The notes beneath the pieces are model-generated. The model did no database searches. It was not told where the DNA came from and was given only the letters and a program-made list of their open reading frames with translations. The translations under genes were made by a program, and so were the position numbers. From positions 14,442-78,441 of the forward strand of contig CALLPK010000008.1 in assembly GCA_938015415.1 (NCBI GenBank): a DNA stretch of 64,000 nucleotides, given 5' to 3'. This DNA comes from an uncultured Saprospiraceae bacterium. GTDB taxonomy: Bacteria > Bacteroidota > Bacteroidia > Chitinophagales > Saprospiraceae. The number at the start of each line of letters is the position of its first letter. Position 1 is the stretch's first letter. Shown here piece by piece: positions 39,976-47,887 of the stretch.

Positions 39976-40368
39976 TCAGCCTCCTACCAGCGGTGTAAGA
40001 CGGACAAAGCTGACCTTGGTGTGTTTATCAACAAGAATTTCTTCGTGCAAATCACCTACCTGATAATCATTTATCAATACAAAAAATCCATTTTTTTGAA
40101 AAGCATCCAAAGCTACGTAAGTCTGCTTTTCAGCGTCAATCGTTGCACCTTTTTTCATTTTATAACCATTGAGCACTCGTTCGGCAGCAGCAGGCTGTAC
40201 CAGGCCGAAATAATGAGGATGTGTATTTTGGTTAAACTGCTCCACTTCGGCGTGCACGCGTGCCTTGATTAAATCAGCTACCGTAAGTGTTTCGTCGTCA
40301 ATTTGCAACAGCAACTCATTGAGCAACTTTCCGGTCATGGACTCGTCCTGAATAGTGATATTTTTCAT
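39976..40368 (-). CDS. Hypothetical small protein
   Basis: MKNITIQDES.... The ORF-track start at 40404 is a GTG. The ATG at complement 40366-40368 is the more plausible start. Confidence 0.4.
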   Translation of the reverse strand: MKNITIQDESMTGKLLNELLLQIDDETLTVADLIKARVHAEVEQFNQNTHPHYFGLVQPAAAERVLNGYKMKKGATIDAEKQTYVALDAFQKNGFFVLINDYQVGDLHEEILVDKHTKVSFVRLTPLVGG

Positions 40369-40755
40369 AAAACAAAAATAAACAATTTCATAGTGAATAT
40401 TCACATATTATCAACAACGCAATTCAATCCTTTAGTTAAGGATTGAAAAACGAAATTAAAGTTAAGAAATTACAGCGCCATGAATGAATGTAACAATACT
40501 TATTTTTATATAAAAAATATAATTAATATCACCAAAAAATTACACTTCCTACCTAAAAAAAAACGCTAAATTTAAATTTTAAAAAACGATGCTAAGATTT
40601 GTTATTTTTTTTTTACTTTTACCATCAATCCAAATATAAACCTCAACCTGAATTTCTCAAATTTGTTACTGTGACTAATTCGCTAATCTAGGGTCTTAAT
40701 ATCAGAACGAATTTTCTTATCTATATTTTTTTAACTAAAAACAAAACATACAACT

Positions 40756-41994
40756 ATGCGACACCCCCTCACTTGGTTTATTATCCTACTTTTTTGGGTT
40801 ATAGGTGGAGCTTTGATTGCTAAGACATTTTGCTGTGGTATCGGTGCTGCTGCGACCAGCGGTCTGCTAATCAAAGACGGAGCAACCACCGTTGCGGCGA
40901 CAAATGCCGGTAACTTACTATTTGGTATTAACGGAGCAGCTCCCATCATCGAATCCACTAACGTTAAAACAGAATTTAACGACCTAGCTACTTATCTAAA
41001 AGAAAATCCAACCAAGTCTGTTACCCTCAATGGTCATTACATGGCCTCGGAGGAAAACAATACCAGCTTTGACAACCTTGGACTGGCACGAGGAGATGCT
41101 ATGAAGGGCTATCTGATTGGATTAGGTGTTCCAGCAGCACAACTATTAACCGGTTCAATGGTCAAAGAAAATCTCGAAATGAATGACGAGCGAATTGTAG
41201 GAGGTATGTCTTATGTATTCGGTACCGTTGCTGGTGGTCGCAATCTGAATATTCAGGACGCTGCTGCTTTTGGTACTACCGCAGATGGCAATTTAATCTT
41301 TCCAATGTCCTCTTACGAATATATTGATCCAGTAGCAGCCGAGGTGACCGCATCTTTTCAAAAAACGGCTGATTATCTAAAAGCCAATCCAAAGCGGTCA
41401 ATAAAAATTACTGGATTATATACCGATCAGGAAACCAACAGCAGTGTACTACCTTCTCTCGGAATGGCCAGAGCTAATAAGATTAAAGGTATGCTGACTG
41501 CAATGGGTGTTCCTTCCAATCAGATCGACATAGATGCTCGAATGGAAAATACACTCGCTTTTGTCAACGAAGAAACCATTGGCGGTGCTACTTACGCATT
41601 CTTCGACGGCGCAGAGAGTGGTGATAAACTCGCCGAAGTTGAAAAACGCTTACGCGCCAAACCGATTGTCCTTTATTTCAAAACTAATTCAGAAACCTTA
41701 ACACTGAGTCCTGAACAACGGAACCAATTCGCTGATCTGATTTATTATCTGGACAATAAAGAAGGAGGACGTCTAAATGCAGTAGGACATACCGACGACC
41801 GGGGCGCCGAAAAAATCAATCGCCGACTAAGCCGTAAACGGGCAGAATTTGTTCGGGACTACATCAGTAAAAATGGCGGAATCAATCAAAATCTTGTTTC
41901 CGCTACCGGCCAGGGACCCGATCAACCAATCGCAGACAACGGCACCGAAGGCGGAAGAGCTAAAAACAGACGGGTGGAAATCACCATTAAATAA
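40756..41994 (+). CDS. Membrane-anchored OmpA/MotB-family protein with three tandem OmpA-like peptidoglycan-binding domains
   Basis: 412 aa. The N-terminal TM helix has positive residues before it, so it is N-in with a periplasmic body. There are three repeats of the OmpA-like pattern (..YLKxNP..S..L.GH.....N..L...RA.....L...GV....I). The C-terminus NRRVEITIK is the canonical OmpA_C ending. Confidence 0.75.
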   Translation: MRHPLTWFIILLFWVIGGALIAKTFCCGIGAAATSGLLIKDGATTVAATNAGNLLFGINGAAPIIESTNVKTEFNDLATYLKENPTKSVTLNGHYMASEENNTSFDNLGLARGDAMKGYLIGLGVPAAQLLTGSMVKENLEMNDERIVGGMSYVFGTVAGGRNLNIQDAAAFGTTADGNLIFPMSSYEYIDPVAAEVTASFQKTADYLKANPKRSIKITGLYTDQETNSSVLPSLGMARANKIKGMLTAMGVPSNQIDIDARMENTLAFVNEETIGGATYAFFDGAESGDKLAEVEKRLRAKPIVLYFKTNSETLTLSPEQRNQFADLIYYLDNKEGGRLNAVGHTDDRGAEKINRRLSRKRAEFVRDYISKNGGINQNLVSATGQGPDQPIADNGTEGGRAKNRRVEITIK

Positions 41995-42040
41995 AATTTG
42001 AGAACAATCATTAACCAATAACTTAAAAAAATATAAAAAT

Positions 42041-44497
42041 ATGTTTTGCAGTATACCAATAGCACTATTATGGGGATTAGGGGCAGCTTTGATTGGAGGA
42101 GTAATCGGATGGTTATTAAGAAATAGCCGGATCAAAGAACTTCAGGGACTTTATGAAAGTCAACAACAAAAAACCTTACAAATTCAGGGAGATTACGATT
42201 CTTCCGTGAGCAGCCTTGGTTTGCTACAGGGTCGCTATAATGACATGGAAACAGATTTCACCAACTGGAAATCCCGTTACCAAACCCTGGAAGGTCAGCA
42301 CCAGGATCTGGACCGCAGATACAAGGAGCTAGAGCTGAAATACCAAAACATGAGCACGACGCACAGCAACCTGCAGGCGGAGTACGATGCTTATAAGACT
42401 AAATCTGCTCAAGAGCTTTCTGAAGCAAGAAGTGCTTACAGCAGCCTGGAGGCTAAATATAATACCGCGAATAAAGAACGTGATGAGGCAAATGCTCGTA
42501 TCGCGCAACTAGAACGAACCATCGCAGAATGGGAAGCAAAATTCAATACATTGGATGCACAGTTTGCGACTTACCGTACTGAGCAAACAAACATTATAAC
42601 CTCCTGGGAATCTAAATACAATGTCCTGAACATGAGCATCTCCGGTGGTGATAGCAGTGCCGTTGGTTTTGCCAGCATGGGTGGTGATGGTGGCGCAGCA
42701 GTCGCTGGATGGGAAGTGAAGTATAACTTATTACTAGAACAGTACGATAACTTCCGTAACGAACACGAAGATCTGATCTTCGAATGGAATAGTAAGTACG
42801 ACAATTTGAAAGCAGAATACGATGCATACCGATTACAGTATGATAGTAGTATGAAAGAATGGGAAGCCAAATATAACTTATTGGTAATTGAATTAGGTAA
42901 TTACAAGCACCAACACGAAAGTGTGGTGTCAGATTGGAATCTAAGATATTCTGATCTGCAATCCGAATGGACGTTGAAATATGATGACTTAAATTCTAAG
43001 TATCAGGAGAAACCAAAAGAAGTAGAAGTCATCAAAGAGGTAGAAGTGATTAAAGAAGTTCAGGTACCGGTGGAGGTCATCAAAGAAGTCCCCGTCGAAG
43101 TCATCAAAGAAGTAGAAGTGATTAAGGAAGTACAGGTACCCGTCGAAGTAATTAAAGAAGTACCTGTTGAGGTCATCAAAGAGGTAGAGGTCATCAAGGA
43201 AGTGCCCGTTGAGGTAATCAAGGAAGTAGAAGTCATCAAGCAGGTGCAGGTGCCTGTTGAGACCGTTGTTGAAGTGCCCGTAGAAGTCATTAAAGAAGTC
43301 GAGGTCATCAAAGAGGTACCTGTCGAGGTCATTAAAGAGGTAGAAGTCATCAAGCAGGTGCAAGTGCCCGTTGAGACCGTCGTTGAAGTGCCCGTCGAAG
43401 TGATCAAAGAAGTACCTGTAGAAGTAATCAAGGAAGTCGAAGTCATTAAAGAAGTCGAAGTCATCAAGCAGGTACAAGTGCCCGTAGAGACCGTCGTCGA
43501 AGTGCCCGTCGAAGTGATCAAAGAAGTAGAGGTGATTAAAGAAGTACAAGTGCCTGTCGAGGTGATCAAGGAAGTCGAAGTCATTAAAGAAGTCGAAGTC
43601 ATCAAGCAGGTGCAAGTGCCCGTAGAGACCGTCGTCGAAGTACCCGTTGAAGTGATCAAAGAAGTAGAGGTCATCAAAGAAGTACCCGTTGAGGTAATCA
43701 AGGAAGTCGAAGTCATCAAACAGGTGCAAGTACCCGTTGAAACCGTCGTCGAAGTTCCCGTTGAAGTGATCAAGGAAGTCGAAGTCATCAAAGAAGTAGA
43801 GGTAGAAGTCATTAAAGAAGTAAAAGTACCGGTGGAGGTCATCAAAGAAGTACCCGTTGAAGTAATTAAGGAAGTCGAAGTCATCAAAGAGATTATCAAT
43901 GAGGTCGAAATCATCAAAGAGGTGCCAATCGAGATTATTAAGGAAGTAGAGGTCATCAAAGAGGTAGAGGTAGAAGTAATTAAAGAAGTAGAAGTTACCA
44001 GAGGTCTTGACTTTAGCAACCTGGAAGAATTAATGGCGCAGTTGGGTACCGTTGAAGTTTCTCGAACCATGAAAGAGACAGAAGAAAAACGACCAGCAAA
44101 AGCGAAAGCAATTACCAAAAAGGCAAAAGGTGCTACCAAAGCGAAAGTTACTGCCAAGGGAAAGAGTACTGCCAAAGGAAAAGCCAAATCAACCAGCAAA
44201 GCTGCAACTAAAAAAGCAACTACCGGAACGCGTCGTACTAAAAAGGACGACCTGAAAAAGATCGAAGGAATTGGACCAAAGATCGAACAACTCCTGCACA
44301 AAGCGAAAATCACGACTTTTAAAGAACTGTCCACCACTAAGGTCGGCATTCTGCGTGAGATTCTGCAAAAGGCCGGATCCAGATTCACCATGCACGATCC
44401 TAGTACCTGGGCGCGTCAGGCAAAATTAGCTGCCGCCGATAAATGGGATCAACTAAAGAAATTACAAGACGAACTCGACGGTGGTCGTAAAAAGTAA
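42041..44497 (+). CDS. Membrane-anchored modular repeat protein. It has an N-terminal TM helix, a Trp-periodic coiled coil, a ~320-aa PEVK-like octapeptide array (EVEVIKEV / PVEVIKEV / QVPVETVV), a Lys/Ala/Thr-rich H1-like tract and a C-terminal HhH-like domain.
   Basis: 818 aa. The TM helix is MFCSIPIALLWGLGAALIGGVIGWLL followed by RNSRIK, so by the positive-inside rule the body is cytoplasmic. There are about 8 repeats of W(E/N)xKY(N/D)xL. Nt 43016-43990 hold 24-nt tandem units. KAKAITKKAKGATKAKVTAKGK... is followed by KKDDLKKIEGIGPKIEQLLHKAKITTFKEL, which has a GIGxK helix-hairpin-helix signature. Confidence 0.7.
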   Translation: MFCSIPIALLWGLGAALIGGVIGWLLRNSRIKELQGLYESQQQKTLQIQGDYDSSVSSLGLLQGRYNDMETDFTNWKSRYQTLEGQHQDLDRRYKELELKYQNMSTTHSNLQAEYDAYKTKSAQELSEARSAYSSLEAKYNTANKERDEANARIAQLERTIAEWEAKFNTLDAQFATYRTEQTNIITSWESKYNVLNMSISGGDSSAVGFASMGGDGGAAVAGWEVKYNLLLEQYDNFRNEHEDLIFEWNSKYDNLKAEYDAYRLQYDSSMKEWEAKYNLLVIELGNYKHQHESVVSDWNLRYSDLQSEWTLKYDDLNSKYQEKPKEVEVIKEVEVIKEVQVPVEVIKEVPVEVIKEVEVIKEVQVPVEVIKEVPVEVIKEVEVIKEVPVEVIKEVEVIKQVQVPVETVVEVPVEVIKEVEVIKEVPVEVIKEVEVIKQVQVPVETVVEVPVEVIKEVPVEVIKEVEVIKEVEVIKQVQVPVETVVEVPVEVIKEVEVIKEVQVPVEVIKEVEVIKEVEVIKQVQVPVETVVEVPVEVIKEVEVIKEVPVEVIKEVEVIKQVQVPVETVVEVPVEVIKEVEVIKEVEVEVIKEVKVPVEVIKEVPVEVIKEVEVIKEIINEVEIIKEVPIEIIKEVEVIKEVEVEVIKEVEVTRGLDFSNLEELMAQLGTVEVSRTMKETEEKRPAKAKAITKKAKGATKAKVTAKGKSTAKGKAKSTSKAATKKATTGTRRTKKDDLKKIEGIGPKIEQLLHKAKITTFKELSTTKVGILREILQKAGSRFTMHDPSTWARQAKLAAADKWDQLKKLQDELDGGRKK
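43016..43990 (+). repeat. In-frame 24-nt tandem repeat array with a ~114-nt higher-order unit, encoding the PEVK-like octapeptides
   Basis: Units such as gaagtagaagtcatcaaagaggta repeat about 40 times with synonymous variation. The superunit PVEVIKEVEVIKEVPVEVIKEVEVIKQVQVPVETVVEV repeats about 5 times. Confidence 0.9.
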
Positions 44498-44509
44498 ACA
44501 TCAACAATT

Positions 44510-44545
44510 AGGGAGTGCGTATCTCACGCAGTCCCTATATTTTTC
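44510..44545 (+). terminator. Rho-independent terminator between the two repeat-protein genes
   Basis: agggagtgcgt-atc-tcacgcagtccct followed by atatttttct. Confidence 0.55.
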
Positions 44546-44587
44546 TAATCTTCAAAGCATAATTTTATCACTTAACATCATTGAATA

Positions 44588-45913
44588 ATGAAAAAGGACA
44601 AGCAAACAACTAAAAGAAAACCGCGAGCTACTAGCAAAAAAGCCAGCTCGAGTAAAAAAGGGTCGACCACTAAAAAATCGACCGCCTCCAGCAAAAAATC
44701 CACCACTGGAAAACTAATTGCAAAAGATAAACTAATCGCTATGGTTAGTAAATCAGCTGGTATCTCCATCGCTAAAGCTACCTCAGCTTACGAAACTATC
44801 CTGAAAGAAACACCATCTTTCCGACAGCAGTCTCTAAAAACGGTAAAGGCGAAACACGAAGTAGCGGTAAAAGCTAAATCAAAGCCAACGATTAAAACGG
44901 TGAAGGTTTCTAAAGATAAATTGGTAAAAACTAAGAATACCGTAGAAAAAATCAAGAAGGTTGAGGTGATCAAAGAAGTGATCGTCGAAAAAATCGTCGA
45001 AGTAGAAAAAATCAAAGAGGTAGAGGTCATCAAAAAAGTAAACGTACCGGTGATCAAAAAAGTAGAGGTCATTAAAAAAGTCGAGGTCATTAAAGAAGTA
45101 CCCGTTGAGGTCATTAAAGAAGTAGAAGTGATCAAAGAAGTAGAAGTGATCAAAGAAGTACCCGTCGAAGTGATCAACGAAGTAATCGTCGAAGTGGAAG
45201 TTTTCCGCGATGTACCCGTCGAAGTAATCAAAGAAATTACCATGATCCGTGAGGTCGAAGTAATTAAAGAAATTCCTGTCACCATCGTCAAAGAGGTCGA
45301 AATCATCAAAGAAGTACCCGTCGAAGTCGTCCGCGAAGTGGAAGTAGTAAAATCAATTGATTTTGACTCCCTCAAGAAAATGATGGCTAAAATGGGAACG
45401 GTAGAGGTTTCTAAAAAAGTAGTAGGTGAAACTCGTACTGCTCAAAAAGCTACCATCGTAGACCGGCGAGAAGTAGGAACCACTTCTACTCGTGGTAAAG
45501 CAACCATCACCCGTGGTAAAACAACCTTGTTAACTGGTAAGGCTGCCGAAGAATCCAAGAAAAAAGCTTCTAAATCAGCTTCCAGATCTACCGCTACTTC
45601 CTCAAAAAGTAAGGGAAAAGCAAAAGTTACTAAAAAGACGACTAGCAAAGCAAAAGCTAGCAAGAAAGATGATTTGAAAAAAATCGAAGGTATCGGACCA
45701 AAAATTGAGCAATTGCTCAACAAAGACGGTATCCACACCTGGAAGCAACTTGCAGCAGCTAAGGTAAGCCGTATTCAGAAAGTTCTGACCGCAGCGGGAC
45801 CTCGCTATAAAATGCACAATCCAGGTAGCTGGCCAAAACAATCCAACCTCGCCGCTAAAGGTAAGTGGAAAGAATTGGAAAAATTACAAGACGAATTAAA
45901 CGGTGGACGTTAA
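44588..45913 (+). CDS. Soluble paralog of the upstream repeat protein. It has a Lys/Ser/Thr-rich N-terminus, a short HU-like helix segment, a PEVK-like EVIKEV array, an H1-like basic tract and the same C-terminal HhH-like domain.
   Basis: 441 aa. MKKDKQTTKRKPRATSKKASSSKKGSTTKK...; LIAMVSKSAGISIAKATSAYETI resembles an HU/IHF N-terminal helix; EVIKEV-type repeats at nt 44950-45360; MMAKMGTVEVS matches LMAQLGTVEVS in the paralog; the C-terminus KKDDLKKIEGIGPKIEQLLNKDGIHTWKQL is 18/18 identical at the start to the paralog. Confidence 0.7.
   Translation: MKKDKQTTKRKPRATSKKASSSKKGSTTKKSTASSKKSTTGKLIAKDKLIAMVSKSAGISIAKATSAYETILKETPSFRQQSLKTVKAKHEVAVKAKSKPTIKTVKVSKDKLVKTKNTVEKIKKVEVIKEVIVEKIVEVEKIKEVEVIKKVNVPVIKKVEVIKKVEVIKEVPVEVIKEVEVIKEVEVIKEVPVEVINEVIVEVEVFRDVPVEVIKEITMIREVEVIKEIPVTIVKEVEIIKEVPVEVVREVEVVKSIDFDSLKKMMAKMGTVEVSKKVVGETRTAQKATIVDRREVGTTSTRGKATITRGKTTLLTGKAAEESKKKASKSASRSTATSSKSKGKAKVTKKTTSKAKASKKDDLKKIEGIGPKIEQLLNKDGIHTWKQLAAAKVSRIQKVLTAAGPRYKMHNPGSWPKQSNLAAKGKWKELEKLQDELNGGR
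44950..45360 (+). repeat. In-frame 24-nt tandem repeat array, the EVIKEV/PVEVIKEV type, in the second paralog
   Basis: gaggtcatcaaagaagta-type units, about 17 copies. Confidence 0.85.
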
Positions 45914-46162
45914 TTCAAAGAATATAACAGACTTTCTGTTTAACACAATAAAGAAGATGGTGACTCCGGTTGCTGTCTTTTTTTTGTTCTTTTCTAAAAT
46001 TTATTCCCTTACGGAAAATAAGCTAGCACCCCAGGCCTACCCACTTGCGTAGCGTACCCCTTTTTTATTCAAAATATTTTTTATCCTAAATAATAGGAGT
46101 TAGGCTACGCCACATAAAGTAGAAATATCCTATATTTGATCTGCTCAAGTCTAATAATAACA

Positions 46163-46516
46163 ATGTCCGACGTAGAAGAATTCATCCTCCAGTTTTCCGG
46201 CCACCAACGGGCCGTACTCGAATATTTCCACCAGCTCTTTACCCAAGAACTCCAACTAACCGATAAACTCCGTTACAAAATTCCTTTCTACGACGGCAAA
46301 ACCTGGATTTGCTACCTCAATCCCACCAAAGGAGAAAAGATAGAACTCGTCTTCCTCCGGGGACGCGAACTTTCCAACGCACAAGGCCTCCTCAATCACA
46401 AAGGGCGAAAGATGGTCAGCGGCATCGAATTTGCCTCCGTAGCAGAAATCCCAAAGGAATTAATAAACGAAATAATTCAGGAGGCCATCTATCTCGACGA
46501 AATTGGTAAAACCTGA
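46163..46516 (+). CDS. DUF1801-like small protein
   Basis: MSDVEEFILQFSGHQRAVLEYFHQL...KIPFYDGKTWICYL...ELVFLRGRELS has the same pattern as the 7474-7899 protein. The start was moved to the internal ATG at 46163. Confidence 0.45.
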   Translation: MSDVEEFILQFSGHQRAVLEYFHQLFTQELQLTDKLRYKIPFYDGKTWICYLNPTKGEKIELVFLRGRELSNAQGLLNHKGRKMVSGIEFASVAEIPKELINEIIQEAIYLDEIGKT

Positions 46517-46915: not shown

Positions 46916-47887
46916 ATGAGTGAAATAGTCATATATCAAGATTCAAATAAGCAAATTAAGCTAAGTGTTCAATTAGAAGGAGAAACCGTATGGCTAACCC
47001 AGAAACAAATGTCAGAATTATTTGACACTACCCCTCAGAACATAACGATGCATCTAAAATCAGTCTTCTTAGAAGGTGAATTAGATGAAATTTCAACTTG
47101 TAAGGATTTCTTACATGTTCGTCAAGAAGGAAATAGGAAAGTCAAAAGGAACCAAAGACACTACAATTTGGATGCGATCATATCCGTTGGATACAGGGTA
47201 AAGTCACACAGAGCAACACAATTTAGAATATGGGCAACCTCTAAGTTAAGAGAACTTTTGGTTCAAGGCTATGTCGTCAATCAACAACGTCTCGAACAGA
47301 AGAAACAAGAAGTAAAAATTCTAAAATCAGGCATTCAAATATTAGGCAGAGCGATAGAAAAAAAGGCCGAAGATGAAGGTTATAGTTGGTTAGATACTTT
47401 CTCTAAGGGACTAAGTCTATTAGATGACTATGATCATGAATCATTAGATAAATCGGGAATCACTAACAAAAAGGCTAATTACCCCAAACTAAAGGACTAT
47501 TACAACGTGGTAGAGGCCATGAAATCCGAATTTGATTCTGATGTTTTTGGAAAAGAAAAAGATGAAAATTTTCAAAGTTCAGTCTCGCAAATATTGAAAG
47601 GTATAGGAGATGATGACTTTTATCCCACAATAGAAGAGAAAGCCGCAATGCTTCTATATCTTATAACAAAGAATCATTCATTTGTAGATGGAAATAAGAG
47701 AATAGCAGCTGCTTGTTTTCTCTTGTTTCTTGAAAATAACAACTTATTGCATACTGTCAATGACTCAACTATAATGAGCAATGAAGCATTAGCAGCGTTG
47801 ACCTTATATATTGCAAGTAGTAAACCTGAAGAAATGGAAACAGTAAAAAGGCTAACTATAAGTGTACTCAATCGAAATCAAGAATAA
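46916..47887 (+). CDS. RhuM-family N-terminal domain fused to a Fic/Doc domain
   Basis: 323 aa. The N-terminus MSEIVIYQDSNKQIKLSVQLEGETVWLTQKQMSELFDTTPQNITMHLKSVF is the RhuM-type conserved opening. The C-terminus HSFVDGNKRIAAACFLLFL matches the Fic/Doc motif HxFx(D/E)GNKR. The gene lies in an AT-rich stretch at 46520-48100. Confidence 0.7.
   Translation: MSEIVIYQDSNKQIKLSVQLEGETVWLTQKQMSELFDTTPQNITMHLKSVFLEGELDEISTCKDFLHVRQEGNRKVKRNQRHYNLDAIISVGYRVKSHRATQFRIWATSKLRELLVQGYVVNQQRLEQKKQEVKILKSGIQILGRAIEKKAEDEGYSWLDTFSKGLSLLDDYDHESLDKSGITNKKANYPKLKDYYNVVEAMKSEFDSDVFGKEKDENFQSSVSQILKGIGDDDFYPTIEEKAAMLLYLITKNHSFVDGNKRIAAACFLLFLENNNLLHTVNDSTIMSNEALAALTLYIASSKPEEMETVKRLTISVLNRNQE

What the first reader, a model, noticed from the sequence alone, without database searches (positions are those of the whole stretch)
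43016..43990. About 975 nt of in-frame 24-nt tandem repeats with a 114-nt higher-order unit. This is a length-variable, hypermutable coding array under amino-acid-level selection.
Roughly 40 consecutive octapeptide units (EVEVIKEV, PVEVIKEV, QVPVETVV) are arranged in a ~38-aa super-repeat. Copies differ mostly at synonymous positions (gaagtc/gaggtc/gaagta, atcaaa/attaaa/atcaag). That is the pattern expected when selection maintains the peptide while recombination shuffles units. A shorter array of the same type lies in the paralog at 44950-45360. Such arrays commonly expand and contract between strains and frequently collapse in short-read assemblies, so the true copy number may differ from what is shown. 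The composition of only P, E, V, K and I predicts an intrinsically disordered, highly charged, PEVK-like elastic segment.
Basis: seen in the sequence. Interest (0 to 1): 0.6.

Follow-up and report, generated by a model that had tools for sequence, protein, structure and literature searches.

The report
Length-variable valine-rich repeat stalk protein
A real 981-base in-frame repeat encodes a 327-residue valine/glutamate-rich stalk in a membrane-anchored Saprospiraceae protein; its length differs between near-identical strains while its peptide is tightly conserved, and it resembles protist membrane-skeleton (alveolin/articulin) repeats more than muscle PEVK.

Summary
The array is real: window 43016-43996 (+), in frame within an 818-aa ORF (42041-44497). 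It is not a uniform 24-nt repeat. It is a mosaic of 18-, 24- and 30-nt units (VEVIKE, VPVEVIKE, VQVPVE...) with a dominant 114-nt super-repeat present five times.

Selection on the peptide is confirmed. Units with identical protein sequence differ at about 75% of synonymous sites. Orthologous array ends are 100% identical in protein at pS 0.63.

Length variability is confirmed. Syntenic relatives carry arrays of 157 to 411 aa. Contigs whose flanks are identical at every base, or differ by one SNP, differ inside the array by 36-nt or 252-nt indels plus a clustered, conversion-like patch of substitutions.

The PEVK-like disordered reading is not supported. Proline is 7% and V+I is 50%. A strict (V/K)-(E/I/P/Q) two-residue register runs through all 327 residues. 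No Pfam family matches the array. The nearest sequence relatives are alveolin/articulin-type repeats. The actual structure is unresolved, because both AlphaFold models are low-confidence.

The protein reads: membrane anchor, coiled coil, array, Lys-rich tract, helix-hairpin-helix-type (COG3743) domain. It sits in a conserved OmpA-like/A/B cassette of Bacteroidota. The most likely role of the array is a modular, length-adjustable stalk.

The parts
40756..41994 (+). Upstream gene for an OmpA-family protein (412 aa). It has an N-terminal hydrophobic anchor and three OmpA-like stretches. It is the conserved partner placed immediately upstream of gene A.
   Evidence: Pfam OmpA, E 2.1e-30, 3 stretches. 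tblastn finds an OmpA-like gene directly upstream of the H3TH-domain gene in many Bacteroidota loci.
42041..44497 (+). Gene A, 818 aa: membrane anchor, coiled coil, repeat array, junction, Lys-rich tract, C-terminal HhH-type domain.
   Evidence: ORF. Domain hits. Orthologues in syntenic contigs.
42050..42121 (+). N-terminal hydrophobic segment (SIPIALLWGLGAALIGGVIGWLLR), followed by RNSRIK. It is read as a membrane anchor with the rest of the protein in the cytoplasm (inferred from the positive-inside rule).
   Evidence: Sequence. The same anchor is present in the orthologues and in P0009.
42122..43009 (+). Helical coiled-coil-type region of about 300 aa with recurring W-x-x-K-Y-N motifs.
   Evidence: Weak matches to coiled-coil families (SMC, GAS, SHE3). 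Homologues carry the same W..KY repeats.
43016..43996 (+). The repeat array: 327 codons in 44 units of 6, 8 or 10 residues, preceded by a KP dipeptide (with the array's first two residues this is the family's conserved KPKE lead-in). It keeps a strict two-residue register. Odd positions are V116, K38, T5, I4, N1. Even positions are E84, I38, P22, Q13, V5, K1.
43157..43750 (+). Block of five super-repeat copies, each ending in QVQVPVETVV (114 nt / 38 aa each; one interval is 138 nt / 46 aa). This is the part that expands and contracts between lineages.
   Evidence: Marker positions. Marker counts are 0, 1, 3, 3, 5, 7 and 8 in relatives. Copies within a lineage are more alike than copies between lineages.
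43997..44080 (+). Conserved junction (TRGLDFSNLEELMAQLGTVEVS...) that always follows the last repeat in this family.
   Evidence: Alignment A1. AlphaFold places a short strand plus a helix here in the paralogue, at low to moderate confidence.
44081..44245 (+). Lys/Ala/Thr-rich basic tract (net charge +0.35 per residue). Its length varies between lineages.
   Evidence: The whole post-array region (junction, basic tract and C-terminal domain) is 158-182 aa in relatives, and the variation lies in this tract.
44246..44494 (+). C-terminal helix-hairpin-helix-type domain (COG3743 / 'H3TH', DDLKKIEGIGPKI...). It is the same domain as the C-terminal extensions of alphaproteobacterial NuoE, L21 and S2 and of RC-LH1 protein-O.
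   Evidence: Pfam HHH_5 (weak in A; 27.0 bits, equal to the curated cut-off, in the paralogue). NCBIfam sub-threshold regional matches. PDB sequence hits 8yy9_O at E 1.4e-9 and 9wqv_a at E 8e-6. AlphaFold pLDDT is above 90 in the paralogue.
44588..45913 (+). Gene B (441 aa), a paralogue without the membrane anchor. It has a Lys/Ser/Thr-rich N-terminus, a conserved two-helix element, a shorter degenerate array, and the same junction, basic tract and C-terminal domain.
44954..45352 (+). Array of the paralogue (about 133 aa), in the same two-residue register. Its length is constant within lineages and ranges from 83 to 133 aa between lineages.
45950..45983 (+). Terminator-like hairpin with a T-run after gene B. 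It is the only such site on the + strand in 40300-46300, consistent with an OmpA-A-B transcription unit (a consensus match only).
   Evidence: The intergenic gaps are 46 nt and 90 nt.

Best explanation
The array is a genuine, translated coding repeat. It forms the central stalk of a membrane-anchored, cytoplasm-facing protein of an uncultured Saprospiraceae bacterium.

The protein reads: N-terminal membrane anchor, about 300-aa coiled coil, 327-aa array, short conserved junction, Lys-rich tract, C-terminal helix-hairpin-helix-type (COG3743) domain. The array separates the membrane-proximal part from the C-terminal binding module and sets the distance between them.

Its peptide is not free to drift. 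A strict alternation of V/K positions with E/I/P/Q positions is kept over all 327 residues, and every unit and every indel is an even number of residues. That is the signature of articulin/alveolin-type, beta-prone valine repeats, not of proline-rich PEVK.

Length evolves by gain, loss and gene conversion of 114-126-nt super-repeats, through homologous recombination between copies. The short 18-30-nt units are old and scrambled at synonymous sites, so they are not slippage-prone.

Shown: the array, the reading frame, selection on the peptide, the register, the length polymorphism, the domain order and the conserved cassette.

Inferred: cytoplasmic topology, the spacer role, nucleic-acid or polyanion binding by the Lys-rich/HhH end, the recombination mechanism, and the physical conformation.
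For: - Array and frame.
- Purifying selection. Protein-identical units have pS 0.74-0.77. Two super-repeat copies differ at 17/114 nt and 0 aa. Core pN/pS is 0.135. For the last 60 array residues, window versus L004, protein identity is 100%, pS is 0.63 and pN is 0. The N-terminal domain has pN 0.068 and pS 0.545.
- Register. The same register is found in family members and in a eukaryotic protein that Pfam assigns to IMCp.
- Length change. Arrays are 157-411 aa in syntenic orthologues. L002 and L004 differ by 2 SNPs and a 252-nt indel of two super-repeats. L089 and L090 have identical flanks (0/1545 nt) but a 36-nt indel plus 10 substitutions clustered within 85 nt. Two independent assemblies, L092 and L093, give the same 411-aa array with 1 difference in 1233 nt. 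Expansions are lineage-specific. The longest exact repeats are 47-59 nt, shorter than the k=141 implied by the 'k141_' names of the ENA contigs, so collapse is unlikely.
- Spacer role. In Siphonobacter the same OmpA-like / anchor / COG3743-domain genes have only about 60-aa Pro/Ala-rich linkers where the array sits. D. shibae protein-O is a transmembrane domain, a long flexible loop and the same C-terminal domain. Family members carry from 2 to about 49 units.
- Cassette conservation.
Against: - No experimental data exist for any member, and no paper with these motifs was found.
- The conformation is unresolved. AlphaFold with a 13-sequence alignment gives no secondary structure and pLDDT of about 30 for the paralogue's array. 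The single-sequence model of A gives long beta strands, but at pLDDT 35-60.
- The published view of the C-terminal domain is that its function is obscure (PMC12079452). Structural matches to DNA-binding HhH modules are all non-significant, so the binding partner is a guess.
- Some family members (L009, P0003) carry Ig-like beta domains between arrays. These are more usual outside the cell and cast some doubt on the topology.
- All length comparisons rest on metagenome assemblies.
Confidence: 0.6

Rival explanations
1. One reading: the array is an intrinsically disordered, highly charged, PEVK-like entropic spring. Only composition and length matter.
For: - AlphaFold pLDDT is about 30 with no secondary structure for the paralogue's array.
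- Homologous proteins have clearly low-complexity Pro/Ala linkers at the same position.
- Protein-O has a flexible loop there.
- Large length differences are tolerated.
- 38% of residues are charged.
Against: - P is only 6.7%, and V+I, which are beta-branched and hydrophobic, make up 50%.
- Mean hydropathy is 0.556 against a disorder boundary of 0.463.
- A strict two-residue register is kept, and all units and indels are even-numbered.
- The exact peptide is conserved with pN 0 at pS 0.63, whereas linkers constrained only in composition usually drift.
- No Pfam match, including PPAK, at E<=10.
- The nearest sequence relatives are filament-forming alveolin/articulin-type repeats (PMC2120578).
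Confidence: 0.22
2. The arrays are self-assembling, articulin/alveolin-like modules. Anchored A and soluble B co-polymerise through their V-x repeats into beta-rich filaments or a sheet beneath the inner membrane, forming a bacterial membrane skeleton tied to the wall by the OmpA-like partner.
For: - The array aligns at 54% identity over 325 residues (BLASTP E 4e-22) with a protein whose repeats Pfam calls IMCp, and shares its register.
- It is 71% identical over about 177 aa to a gregarine protein.
- An articulin with the VPVP--V-V-V- consensus has 30% beta sheet and forms filaments in vitro (PMC2120578).
- Two paralogues with the same repeat type sit in one conserved cassette.
- Sequence constraint is very strong.
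- The single-sequence AlphaFold model stacks long strands at the super-repeat spacing, at low confidence.
Against: - The Pfam IMCp model does not match the array even at E<=10.
- The periodicity is 6/8/10 and 38 aa, not 12.
- Large length differences between near-identical strains are unexpected for a lattice-forming unit.
- Cytophagales homologues in the same cassette lack arrays altogether.
- Similarity between low-complexity sequences cannot separate homology from convergence.
Confidence: 0.13
3. The array is the stalk of an exported or surface fibril, whose length variation serves antigenic or adhesive diversification, as in many Gram-positive surface-protein repeats.
For: - Very similar repeats occur in a Streptococcus uberis G5-domain surface protein and in a Mycoplasma family.
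- Some family members contain Ig-like domains.
- The neighbouring gene is OmpA-like.
- Length is polymorphic.
Against: - There is no signal peptide. The N-terminus has no positive n-region, and the positive charges follow the hydrophobic segment.
- The C-terminal domain is otherwise fused to cytoplasmic proteins (NuoE, L21, S2, L27).
- Lys-rich tracts flank it.
- Peptide variation is almost nil. Only length varies, the opposite of antigenic diversification.
Confidence: 0.04
4. The array, or its length, is an assembly artefact of short-read metagenomics.
For: - Several contigs end inside the array or gene A.
- Two contigs from one sample overlap by about 490 nt inside the array but were not merged.
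Against: - The same gene with the same architecture was recovered in more than 10 independent contigs from different projects and assemblers.
- Two independent assemblies give the same 411-aa array.
- The longest exact repeat is 47 nt in the window and 59 nt in L004, shorter than reads or the final k-mer.
- Saturated synonymous variation with intact protein sequence cannot arise from misassembly.
Confidence: 0.02

Closest known systems
Alveolins (Pfam IMCp, PF12314), articulins and plateins: membrane-skeleton proteins of alveolates and euglenids
   Same: They are valine-rich tandem repeats with V at every second position, with Pro and alternating charges in register (articulin consensus VPVP--V-V-V-, PMC2120578; alveolin repeats, PMC4303705). 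The window array aligns at 54% identity with an IMCp-annotated protein and shares its odd/even residue partition. They are membrane-associated proteins in which the repeats form the core.
   Different: The Pfam IMCp model does not match the array at E<=10. Units are 6, 8 or 10 residues with a 38-aa super-repeat, not 12 residues. The host is a bacterium. The repeats lie between a transmembrane anchor plus coiled coil and a Lys-rich/HhH module, an architecture unknown in alveolins. Filament formation is untested. Homology cannot be told from convergence for sequences this simple.
Titin PEVK segment
   Same: It is a long repetitive segment dominated by a few residues including P, E, V and K. It has super-repeat organisation and variable length, and is proposed to act as a mechanical spacer.
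   Different: PEVK is proline-rich and built from roughly 28-residue PPAK motifs and poly-E stretches (my own knowledge). Here P is 6.7%, V+I is 50%, and there is a strict dipeptide register. No Pfam repeat family matches. PEVK length varies by splicing; here it varies by genomic recombination.
Anchor / long linker / COG3743 ('H3TH', HhH-type) domain proteins, e.g. Dinoroseobacter shibae RC-LH1 protein-O and the C-terminal extensions of alphaproteobacterial NuoE, L21 and S2
   Same: They share the C-terminal domain (PDB sequence hit 8yy9_O at E 1.4e-9; 9wqv_a at E 8e-6; regional NCBIfam matches). They share the layout of membrane or complex anchor, long low-complexity linker, then the domain (PMC12079452). 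Small versions sit in the same OmpA-linked cassette in Cytophagales.
   Different: Their linkers are short, Pro/Ala/Lys-rich and unstructured in cryo-EM. None is reported with a coiled coil plus a valine-repeat array hundreds of residues long. The authors call the function of the domain obscure.
Coding minisatellites (VNTR-type in-frame repeats) of bacterial proteins
   Same: In-frame units. Copy number differs between near-identical genomes. There is evidence for unequal recombination and gene conversion. Assemblies break there.
   Different: This is not a phase-variation switch, because all changes are multiples of 6 nt. The short units are synonymously scrambled and only the 114-126-nt super-repeats are recombinogenic. 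The protein appears cytoplasm-facing rather than surface-exposed (inferred).

Membership tests
Titin-type PEVK segment | Match to the PPAK/PEVK repeat model (Pfam PPAK motif) | tested here: not met
   hmmscan of the 327-aa array against Pfam-A at E<=10 returned no family.
Titin-type PEVK segment | Proline-rich composition dominated by P, E, V and K, on the disordered side of the charge-hydropathy plot | tested here: not met
   P is 6.7%, V 37%, I 12.8%. Mean hydropathy is 0.556 against a boundary of 0.463.
Alveolin (IMCp, PF12314) | Match to the IMCp profile | tested here: not met
   No hit at E<=10 for the array. The positive control P0089 scores E 5.2e-16.
Alveolin / articulin / platein superfamily | Tandem repeats with a 12-residue consensus periodicity | tested here: not met
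   Units are 6, 8 and 10 residues. The super-repeat is 38 aa (114 nt).
Alveolin / articulin / platein superfamily | Valine at alternate positions, with Pro and charged residues in register | tested here: met
   Odd positions are V116, K38, T5, I4, N1. Even positions are E84, I38, P22, Q13, V5, K1. The same partition is seen in the IMCp-annotated P0089. BLASTP gives 54% identity, E 4e-22.
Alveolin / articulin / platein superfamily | Assembly into beta-containing filaments of a cortical membrane skeleton | not testable with these tools
   AlphaFold models are low-confidence and contradict each other. This needs CD/FTIR, EM and localisation experiments.
COG3743 / H3TH helix-hairpin-helix-type domain proteins | C-terminal DDL-K-IEGIGPKI...W..Q..LAA.G.W..L domain | tested here: met
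   Pfam HHH_5 scores 27.0 bits in the paralogue, equal to the curated cut-off; the match in A is weak. Regional NCBIfam matches to the NuoE, L21 and S2 extensions. PDB 8yy9_O at E 1.4e-9. pLDDT above 90.
COG3743 / H3TH helix-hairpin-helix-type domain proteins | Nucleic-acid binding or nuclease activity, as implied by the COG name | not testable with these tools
   Foldseek gives only non-significant HhH matches (E>0.6). The literature calls the domain's function obscure.
Coding VNTR / minisatellite | Copy number differs between otherwise near-identical genomes | tested here: met
   L002 versus L004: 2 SNPs and a 252-nt indel. L089 versus L090: 0/1545 flank differences and a 36-nt indel. Caveat: these are metagenome assemblies.
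Phase-variable contingency locus | Repeat changes that shift the reading frame or switch expression | tested here: not met
   Units are 12-30 nt and every length difference seen is a multiple of 6 nt. The ORF is intact in all full-length copies.

The most novel reading that the evidence does not exclude
Saprospiraceae, and perhaps other bacteria carrying the roughly 400 related repeat proteins, possess a bacterial counterpart of the protist alveolin/articulin membrane skeleton. The anchored protein A and the soluble paralogue B would zip together through their strictly registered V-x arrays into a beta-rich cortical lattice. The OmpA-like partner would couple this lattice to peptidoglycan, and the Lys-rich/HhH ends would couple it to the nucleoid. 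Such near-perfect repeats would also give a tractable model for the still unsolved structure of alveolin-type repeats.
Probability: 0.13. Interest if true: 0.8.

Novelty: new variant of a known kind. Interest (0 to 1): 0.45.

Why it matters
In-frame, length-variable repeats are common, so the bare observation is ordinary. Three things here are less so.

1. The case is unusually clean. The protein sequence of a repeat is frozen (pN 0) while synonymous sites are near saturation, and length changes between populations whose flanks are identical at every base. Selection on the peptide and recombination on the DNA can therefore be separated quantitatively.

2. The repeat type is a strict V/K-E/I/P/Q dipeptide register with no Pfam model. 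Only about 390 cluster representatives among 1.84 billion proteins match it. It is nearly indistinguishable from alveolin/articulin repeats, whose structure remains unsolved. A bacterial, near-perfect version would be a convenient object for structural work.

3. The array sits in an uncharacterised, conserved Bacteroidota cassette: an OmpA-like protein followed by membrane-anchored proteins ending in a COG3743 domain. The literature calls the function of that domain obscure. The variable stalk suggests that the reach of this domain from the membrane is a tuned parameter.

Tried and rejected
- Exact-sequence look-ups of protein A and the OmpA-like protein found no encoding contig. Relatives were reached through the neighbouring genes instead.
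- Literature searches for the motif strings (EVIKEV, EVPVEV, VEVIKE and others), COG3743 and MAG3090 found nothing relevant.
- A Pfam scan of the array at E<=10 found nothing. phmmer of the array against PDB sequences gave only spurious designed-repeat matches.
- A Foldseek search of the paralogue model against PDB gave only non-significant HhH hits.
- My impression that the N-terminus of B resembles the first helices of HU was tested by phmmer against PDB and is not supported. It is reported only as a conserved two-helix element.
- A metagenome scan with the 3' junction pattern returned only two contigs, one already known.
- AlphaFold (two jobs) did not settle whether the array is ordered.
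- The long reverse-strand ORFs across the array (42989-43729 and 43060-44391, minus strand) were rejected as genes. They are stop-free only because the repeat is simple, and the plus-strand frame is the one with conserved flanking domains.
- A Chou-Fasman-type propensity estimate done by hand was about equal for helix and strand, so I did not use it.


Full report

Tandem Repeats Finder reports overlapping arrays from 43016 to 43995 and nothing comparable in the flanks. The highest-scoring rows have periods of 114, 138, 168, 228 and 252 nt. The region lies inside one ORF, 42041..44497 (+), of 818 aa.

I tokenised the translation. It gives 327 residues (43016..43996) in 44 units:
- 17 six-residue units (VEVIKE, VEVIKQ, VEIIKE)
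- 16 eight-residue units, of which 13 are VP[VI]E[VI]IKE
- 9 ten-residue units (VQVPVEVIKE, VQVPVETVVE, VKVPVEVIKE)

Base-by-base self-similarity is highest at a lag of 114 nt (0.636). It is 0.46 at both 18 and 24 nt. The maximum at any lag in the non-repeat 5' part of the same gene is 0.34.

Five copies of a marker (QVQVPVETVV) lie 38, 38, 46 and 38 residues apart. The paralogue's array is at 44954..45352. The observation therefore stands, with the unit length corrected.

**2. Selection on the peptide**

- The 12 VPVEVIKE units occur in 11 different DNA versions. Their pairwise synonymous difference is 0.74 per synonymous site, and for the 11 VEVIKE units it is 0.77. These values are close to saturation.
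- Over all core hexapeptides pS is 0.806 and pN is 0.108.
- Two 38-aa super-repeat copies differ at 17 of 114 nt and at no amino acid.
- Between orthologues, the last 60 array residues of the window and of L004 are 100% identical in protein at pS 0.63. The N-terminal domain of the same gene has pN 0.068 at pS 0.545.

The array is thus the most constrained part of the protein at the amino-acid level.

**3. A strict register**

Odd positions of the array are V116, K38, T5, I4, N1. Even positions are E84, I38, P22, Q13, V5, K1. The register never slips in 327 residues. All units and all length differences between orthologues are even numbers of residues. The same partition holds in the paralogue, in other family members, and in a eukaryotic protein whose repeats Pfam assigns to IMCp/alveolin.

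**4. Source organism and relatives**

The exact protein is not indexed, but the neighbouring genes are, on an 80,890-bp NCBI/ENA contig. The nearest named genomes are uncultured Saprospiraceae (Bacteroidota) MAGs.

Using the neighbouring DUF4132 and dnaE genes as handles, I recovered syntenic contigs with the gene order OmpA-like, A, B, DUF1801, dnaE.

Array lengths in orthologues of A:

| Contig | Array length (aa) |
|---|---|
| L007 | 157 |
| L096 (nearest relative of the window) | 197 |
| L002 | 209 |
| L004 | 293 |
| window | 327 |
| L089 | 383 |
| L090 | 395 |
| L092, L093 | 411 |

The array edges are collinear, and the middle, which bears the markers, varies.

- L002 and L004 differ by 2 SNPs in 2079 nt plus one 252-nt indel, which is exactly two 126-nt super-repeats.
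- L089 and L090 have no difference in 1545 nt of flanks. Inside the array they differ by a 36-nt indel and 10 substitutions, nine of them clustered within 85 nt, a pattern suggesting gene conversion.
- L092 (ENA, MEGAHIT-style contig name) and L093 (JGI) are independent assemblies. They give the same 411-aa array with 1 difference in 1233 nt.
- Marker regions are nearly identical within the L004 lineage (0-2 differences in 72 nt). They differ by 10-18 of 72 nt from the window copies, and the window's own copies differ by 1-20 of 72 nt. Expansions are therefore lineage-specific and of different ages.

The longest exact DNA repeat is 47 nt in the window and 59 nt in L004. Shuffling synonymous codons gives an expectation of 26 ± 4 nt. 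That is enough for recombination, but shorter than reads and shorter than the k=141 implied by the 'k141_' names of the ENA contigs, so collapse is unlikely.

Contigs nevertheless break inside the array or gene A (L003, L088, L091, L096). Two contigs from one sample overlap by about 490 nt inside the array without being merged.

The paralogue's array is constant within lineages and ranges from 83 to 133 aa between them.

**5. What the protein is**

- Residues 4-27 are hydrophobic and are followed by RNSRIK. The N-terminus has no positive charge. I infer a membrane anchor with the bulk of the protein in the cytoplasm.
- Residues 28-323 give weak coiled-coil-type matches and carry W-x-x-K-Y motifs shared with homologues.
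- After the array comes a junction that is conserved across the family (…EVEVVK-x-IDF-x-SLK-x-MM…VVGETRT…, alignment A1).
- Next is a Lys/Ala/Thr-rich tract (net charge +0.35 per residue).
- Last is a C-terminal domain that matches Pfam HHH_5, the C-terminal extensions of alphaproteobacterial NuoE, L21 and S2, and two PDB entries by sequence: RC-LH1 protein-O of Dinoroseobacter shibae (E 1.4e-9) and a complex I 41-kDa subunit.

AlphaFold models this domain at pLDDT above 90 in the paralogue. Foldseek finds only non-significant helix-hairpin-helix matches. The protein-O paper describes a transmembrane domain, a long flexible loop and this domain, and calls the domain's function obscure (PMC12079452).

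The family has two types. Type A has an anchor and a coiled coil. Type B has a Lys-rich N-terminus and a conserved two-helix element. Members carry anywhere from 2 to about 49 repeat units, and some have several arrays separated by coiled-coil segments, each starting with KPKE.

An OmpA-like gene lies immediately upstream of the anchored protein in many Bacteroidota. In Siphonobacter the cassette is OmpA-like plus two small proteins, each an anchor, a Pro/Ala linker of about 60 aa and the same domain, with no array. The array therefore occupies the position of a linker between anchor and C-terminal domain.

**6. Disordered PEVK or structured repeat?**

Against PEVK and disorder:
- P is 6.7% and V+I is 50%.
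- The segment lies on the folded side of the charge-hydropathy plot.
- The register is strict, and the exact peptide is conserved.
- No Pfam family matches, even at E<=10.

For disorder:
- AlphaFold with a 13-sequence alignment gives pLDDT of about 30 and no secondary structure for the paralogue's array.
- Homologues have obviously flexible linkers at this position.

The single-sequence model of A places long strands at the super-repeat spacing, but at pLDDT 35-60. I treat the conformation as unresolved, with sequence evidence favouring a defined, beta-prone or otherwise specific conformation or interaction.

It is not triggered, because no solved structure or Pfam repeat matches.

**7. Closest known**

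The array aligns at 54% identity over 325 residues (BLASTP E 4e-22) with P0089, whose repeats Pfam assigns to IMCp. It is 71% identical over about 177 residues to a protein of the gregarine Blabericola.

Articulins have the 12-residue consensus VPVP--V-V-V- with charges in register, 30% beta sheet, and form filaments in vitro (PMC2120578). Alveolins have 12-residue repeats and are grouped with articulins and plateins (PMC4303705).

The window array shares the register and composition. It fails the IMCp profile and the 12-residue period. Homology cannot be told from convergence at this level of sequence simplicity.

Similar arrays occur in unrelated bacterial proteins: hybrid kinases/response regulators, PadR regulators, a Mycoplasma family and a Streptococcus uberis G5 protein. 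Only 390 of 1.84 billion cluster representatives match the array at E<=1e-3. I found no paper describing these bacterial repeats.

**8. Verdict**

The array is real and translated. Its peptide is under strong purifying selection, and its length changes by recombination between super-repeats.

'24-nt octapeptide units' and 'PEVK-like disordered by composition' are not supported. 'Hypermutable' applies to super-repeat copy number, not to the short units.

The most likely role is a modular, length-adjustable stalk between a membrane anchor and a Lys-rich/HhH-type end, in a conserved OmpA-linked cassette. A self-assembling, alveolin-like scaffold is the more novel possibility that the data do not exclude.

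Noticed in passing
L024 6344-7849 (Saprospiraceae MAG CALGAW010000010.1): A 501-aa ORF starts as ribosomal protein L27 (MAHKKGVGSSDNGRDS...). It continues through an Ala/Lys/Asp-rich repeat into three tandem copies of the same COG3743 HhH-type domain. This is another cytoplasmic protein fused to that domain.
   Followed up: no
L035 3755-7855 (Siphonobacter aquaeclarae DSM 21668): The gene order is rho, an OmpA-like gene, then two small genes. Each small gene encodes a membrane anchor, a short Pro/Ala-rich linker and the COG3743 domain. This looks like a minimal version of the window's cassette, without any valine repeat, in a cultured strain.
   Followed up: partly
L009 4073-7594 and protein P0003: Some family members carry three copies of a roughly 90-aa beta-type module (…GGDYEYSLD…PGQ.DG.FENLPAGTYTVSA.G…) between valine-repeat arrays. 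The motif looks like extracellular Ig/SprB-type repeats and is hard to reconcile with a cytoplasmic location.
   Followed up: no
window 46916-47887 (+): A RhuM-family plus Fic/DOC gene lies between the DUF1801 gene and dnaE in the window. It is absent from the same interval in L002, L004 and L089-L093, where the two genes are 367-612 nt apart. It looks like a lineage-specific insertion.
   Followed up: partly
window 44081-44245 and the same region in relatives: The Lys/Ala/Thr-rich tract after the junction also changes length between lineages. The region from the junction to the C-terminus is 158, 161, 163, 166 and 182 aa. This is a second low-complexity indel hot spot in the same gene.
   Followed up: partly
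L001 and L006 position 1 (both from ERZ6863811); window 40756-41994: Two contigs of one assembly end at the same point inside the OmpA-like gene, after residue 287. That gene has three OmpA-like stretches, so it may itself be an assembly breakpoint because of internal duplication.
   Followed up: no
window 42989-43729 (-) and 43060-44391 (-): Long stop-free reverse-strand ORFs (246 and 443 aa, e.g. TSTSLMTSTGTS...) run across the array. They are a by-product of the simple repeat, not genes. A gene caller could mis-annotate them.
   Followed up: yes
window 44714-44830 (gene B, residues about 43-81): There is a conserved element (LIAKDKLIAMVSKSAGISIAKATSAYETILKE) at the N-terminus of all type-B proteins. 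AlphaFold models it as two helices (pLDDT 67-77). It has no sequence relative in the PDB, and its resemblance to the HU N-terminus was not supported.
   Followed up: partly
window 42632-42700 (gene A, residues about 198-220): A Gly/Ser/Ala-rich insert (SGGDSSAVGFASMGGDGGAAVAG) interrupts the coiled-coil region. It is conserved in the L002/L004 lineage and shortened in L007.
   Followed up: no
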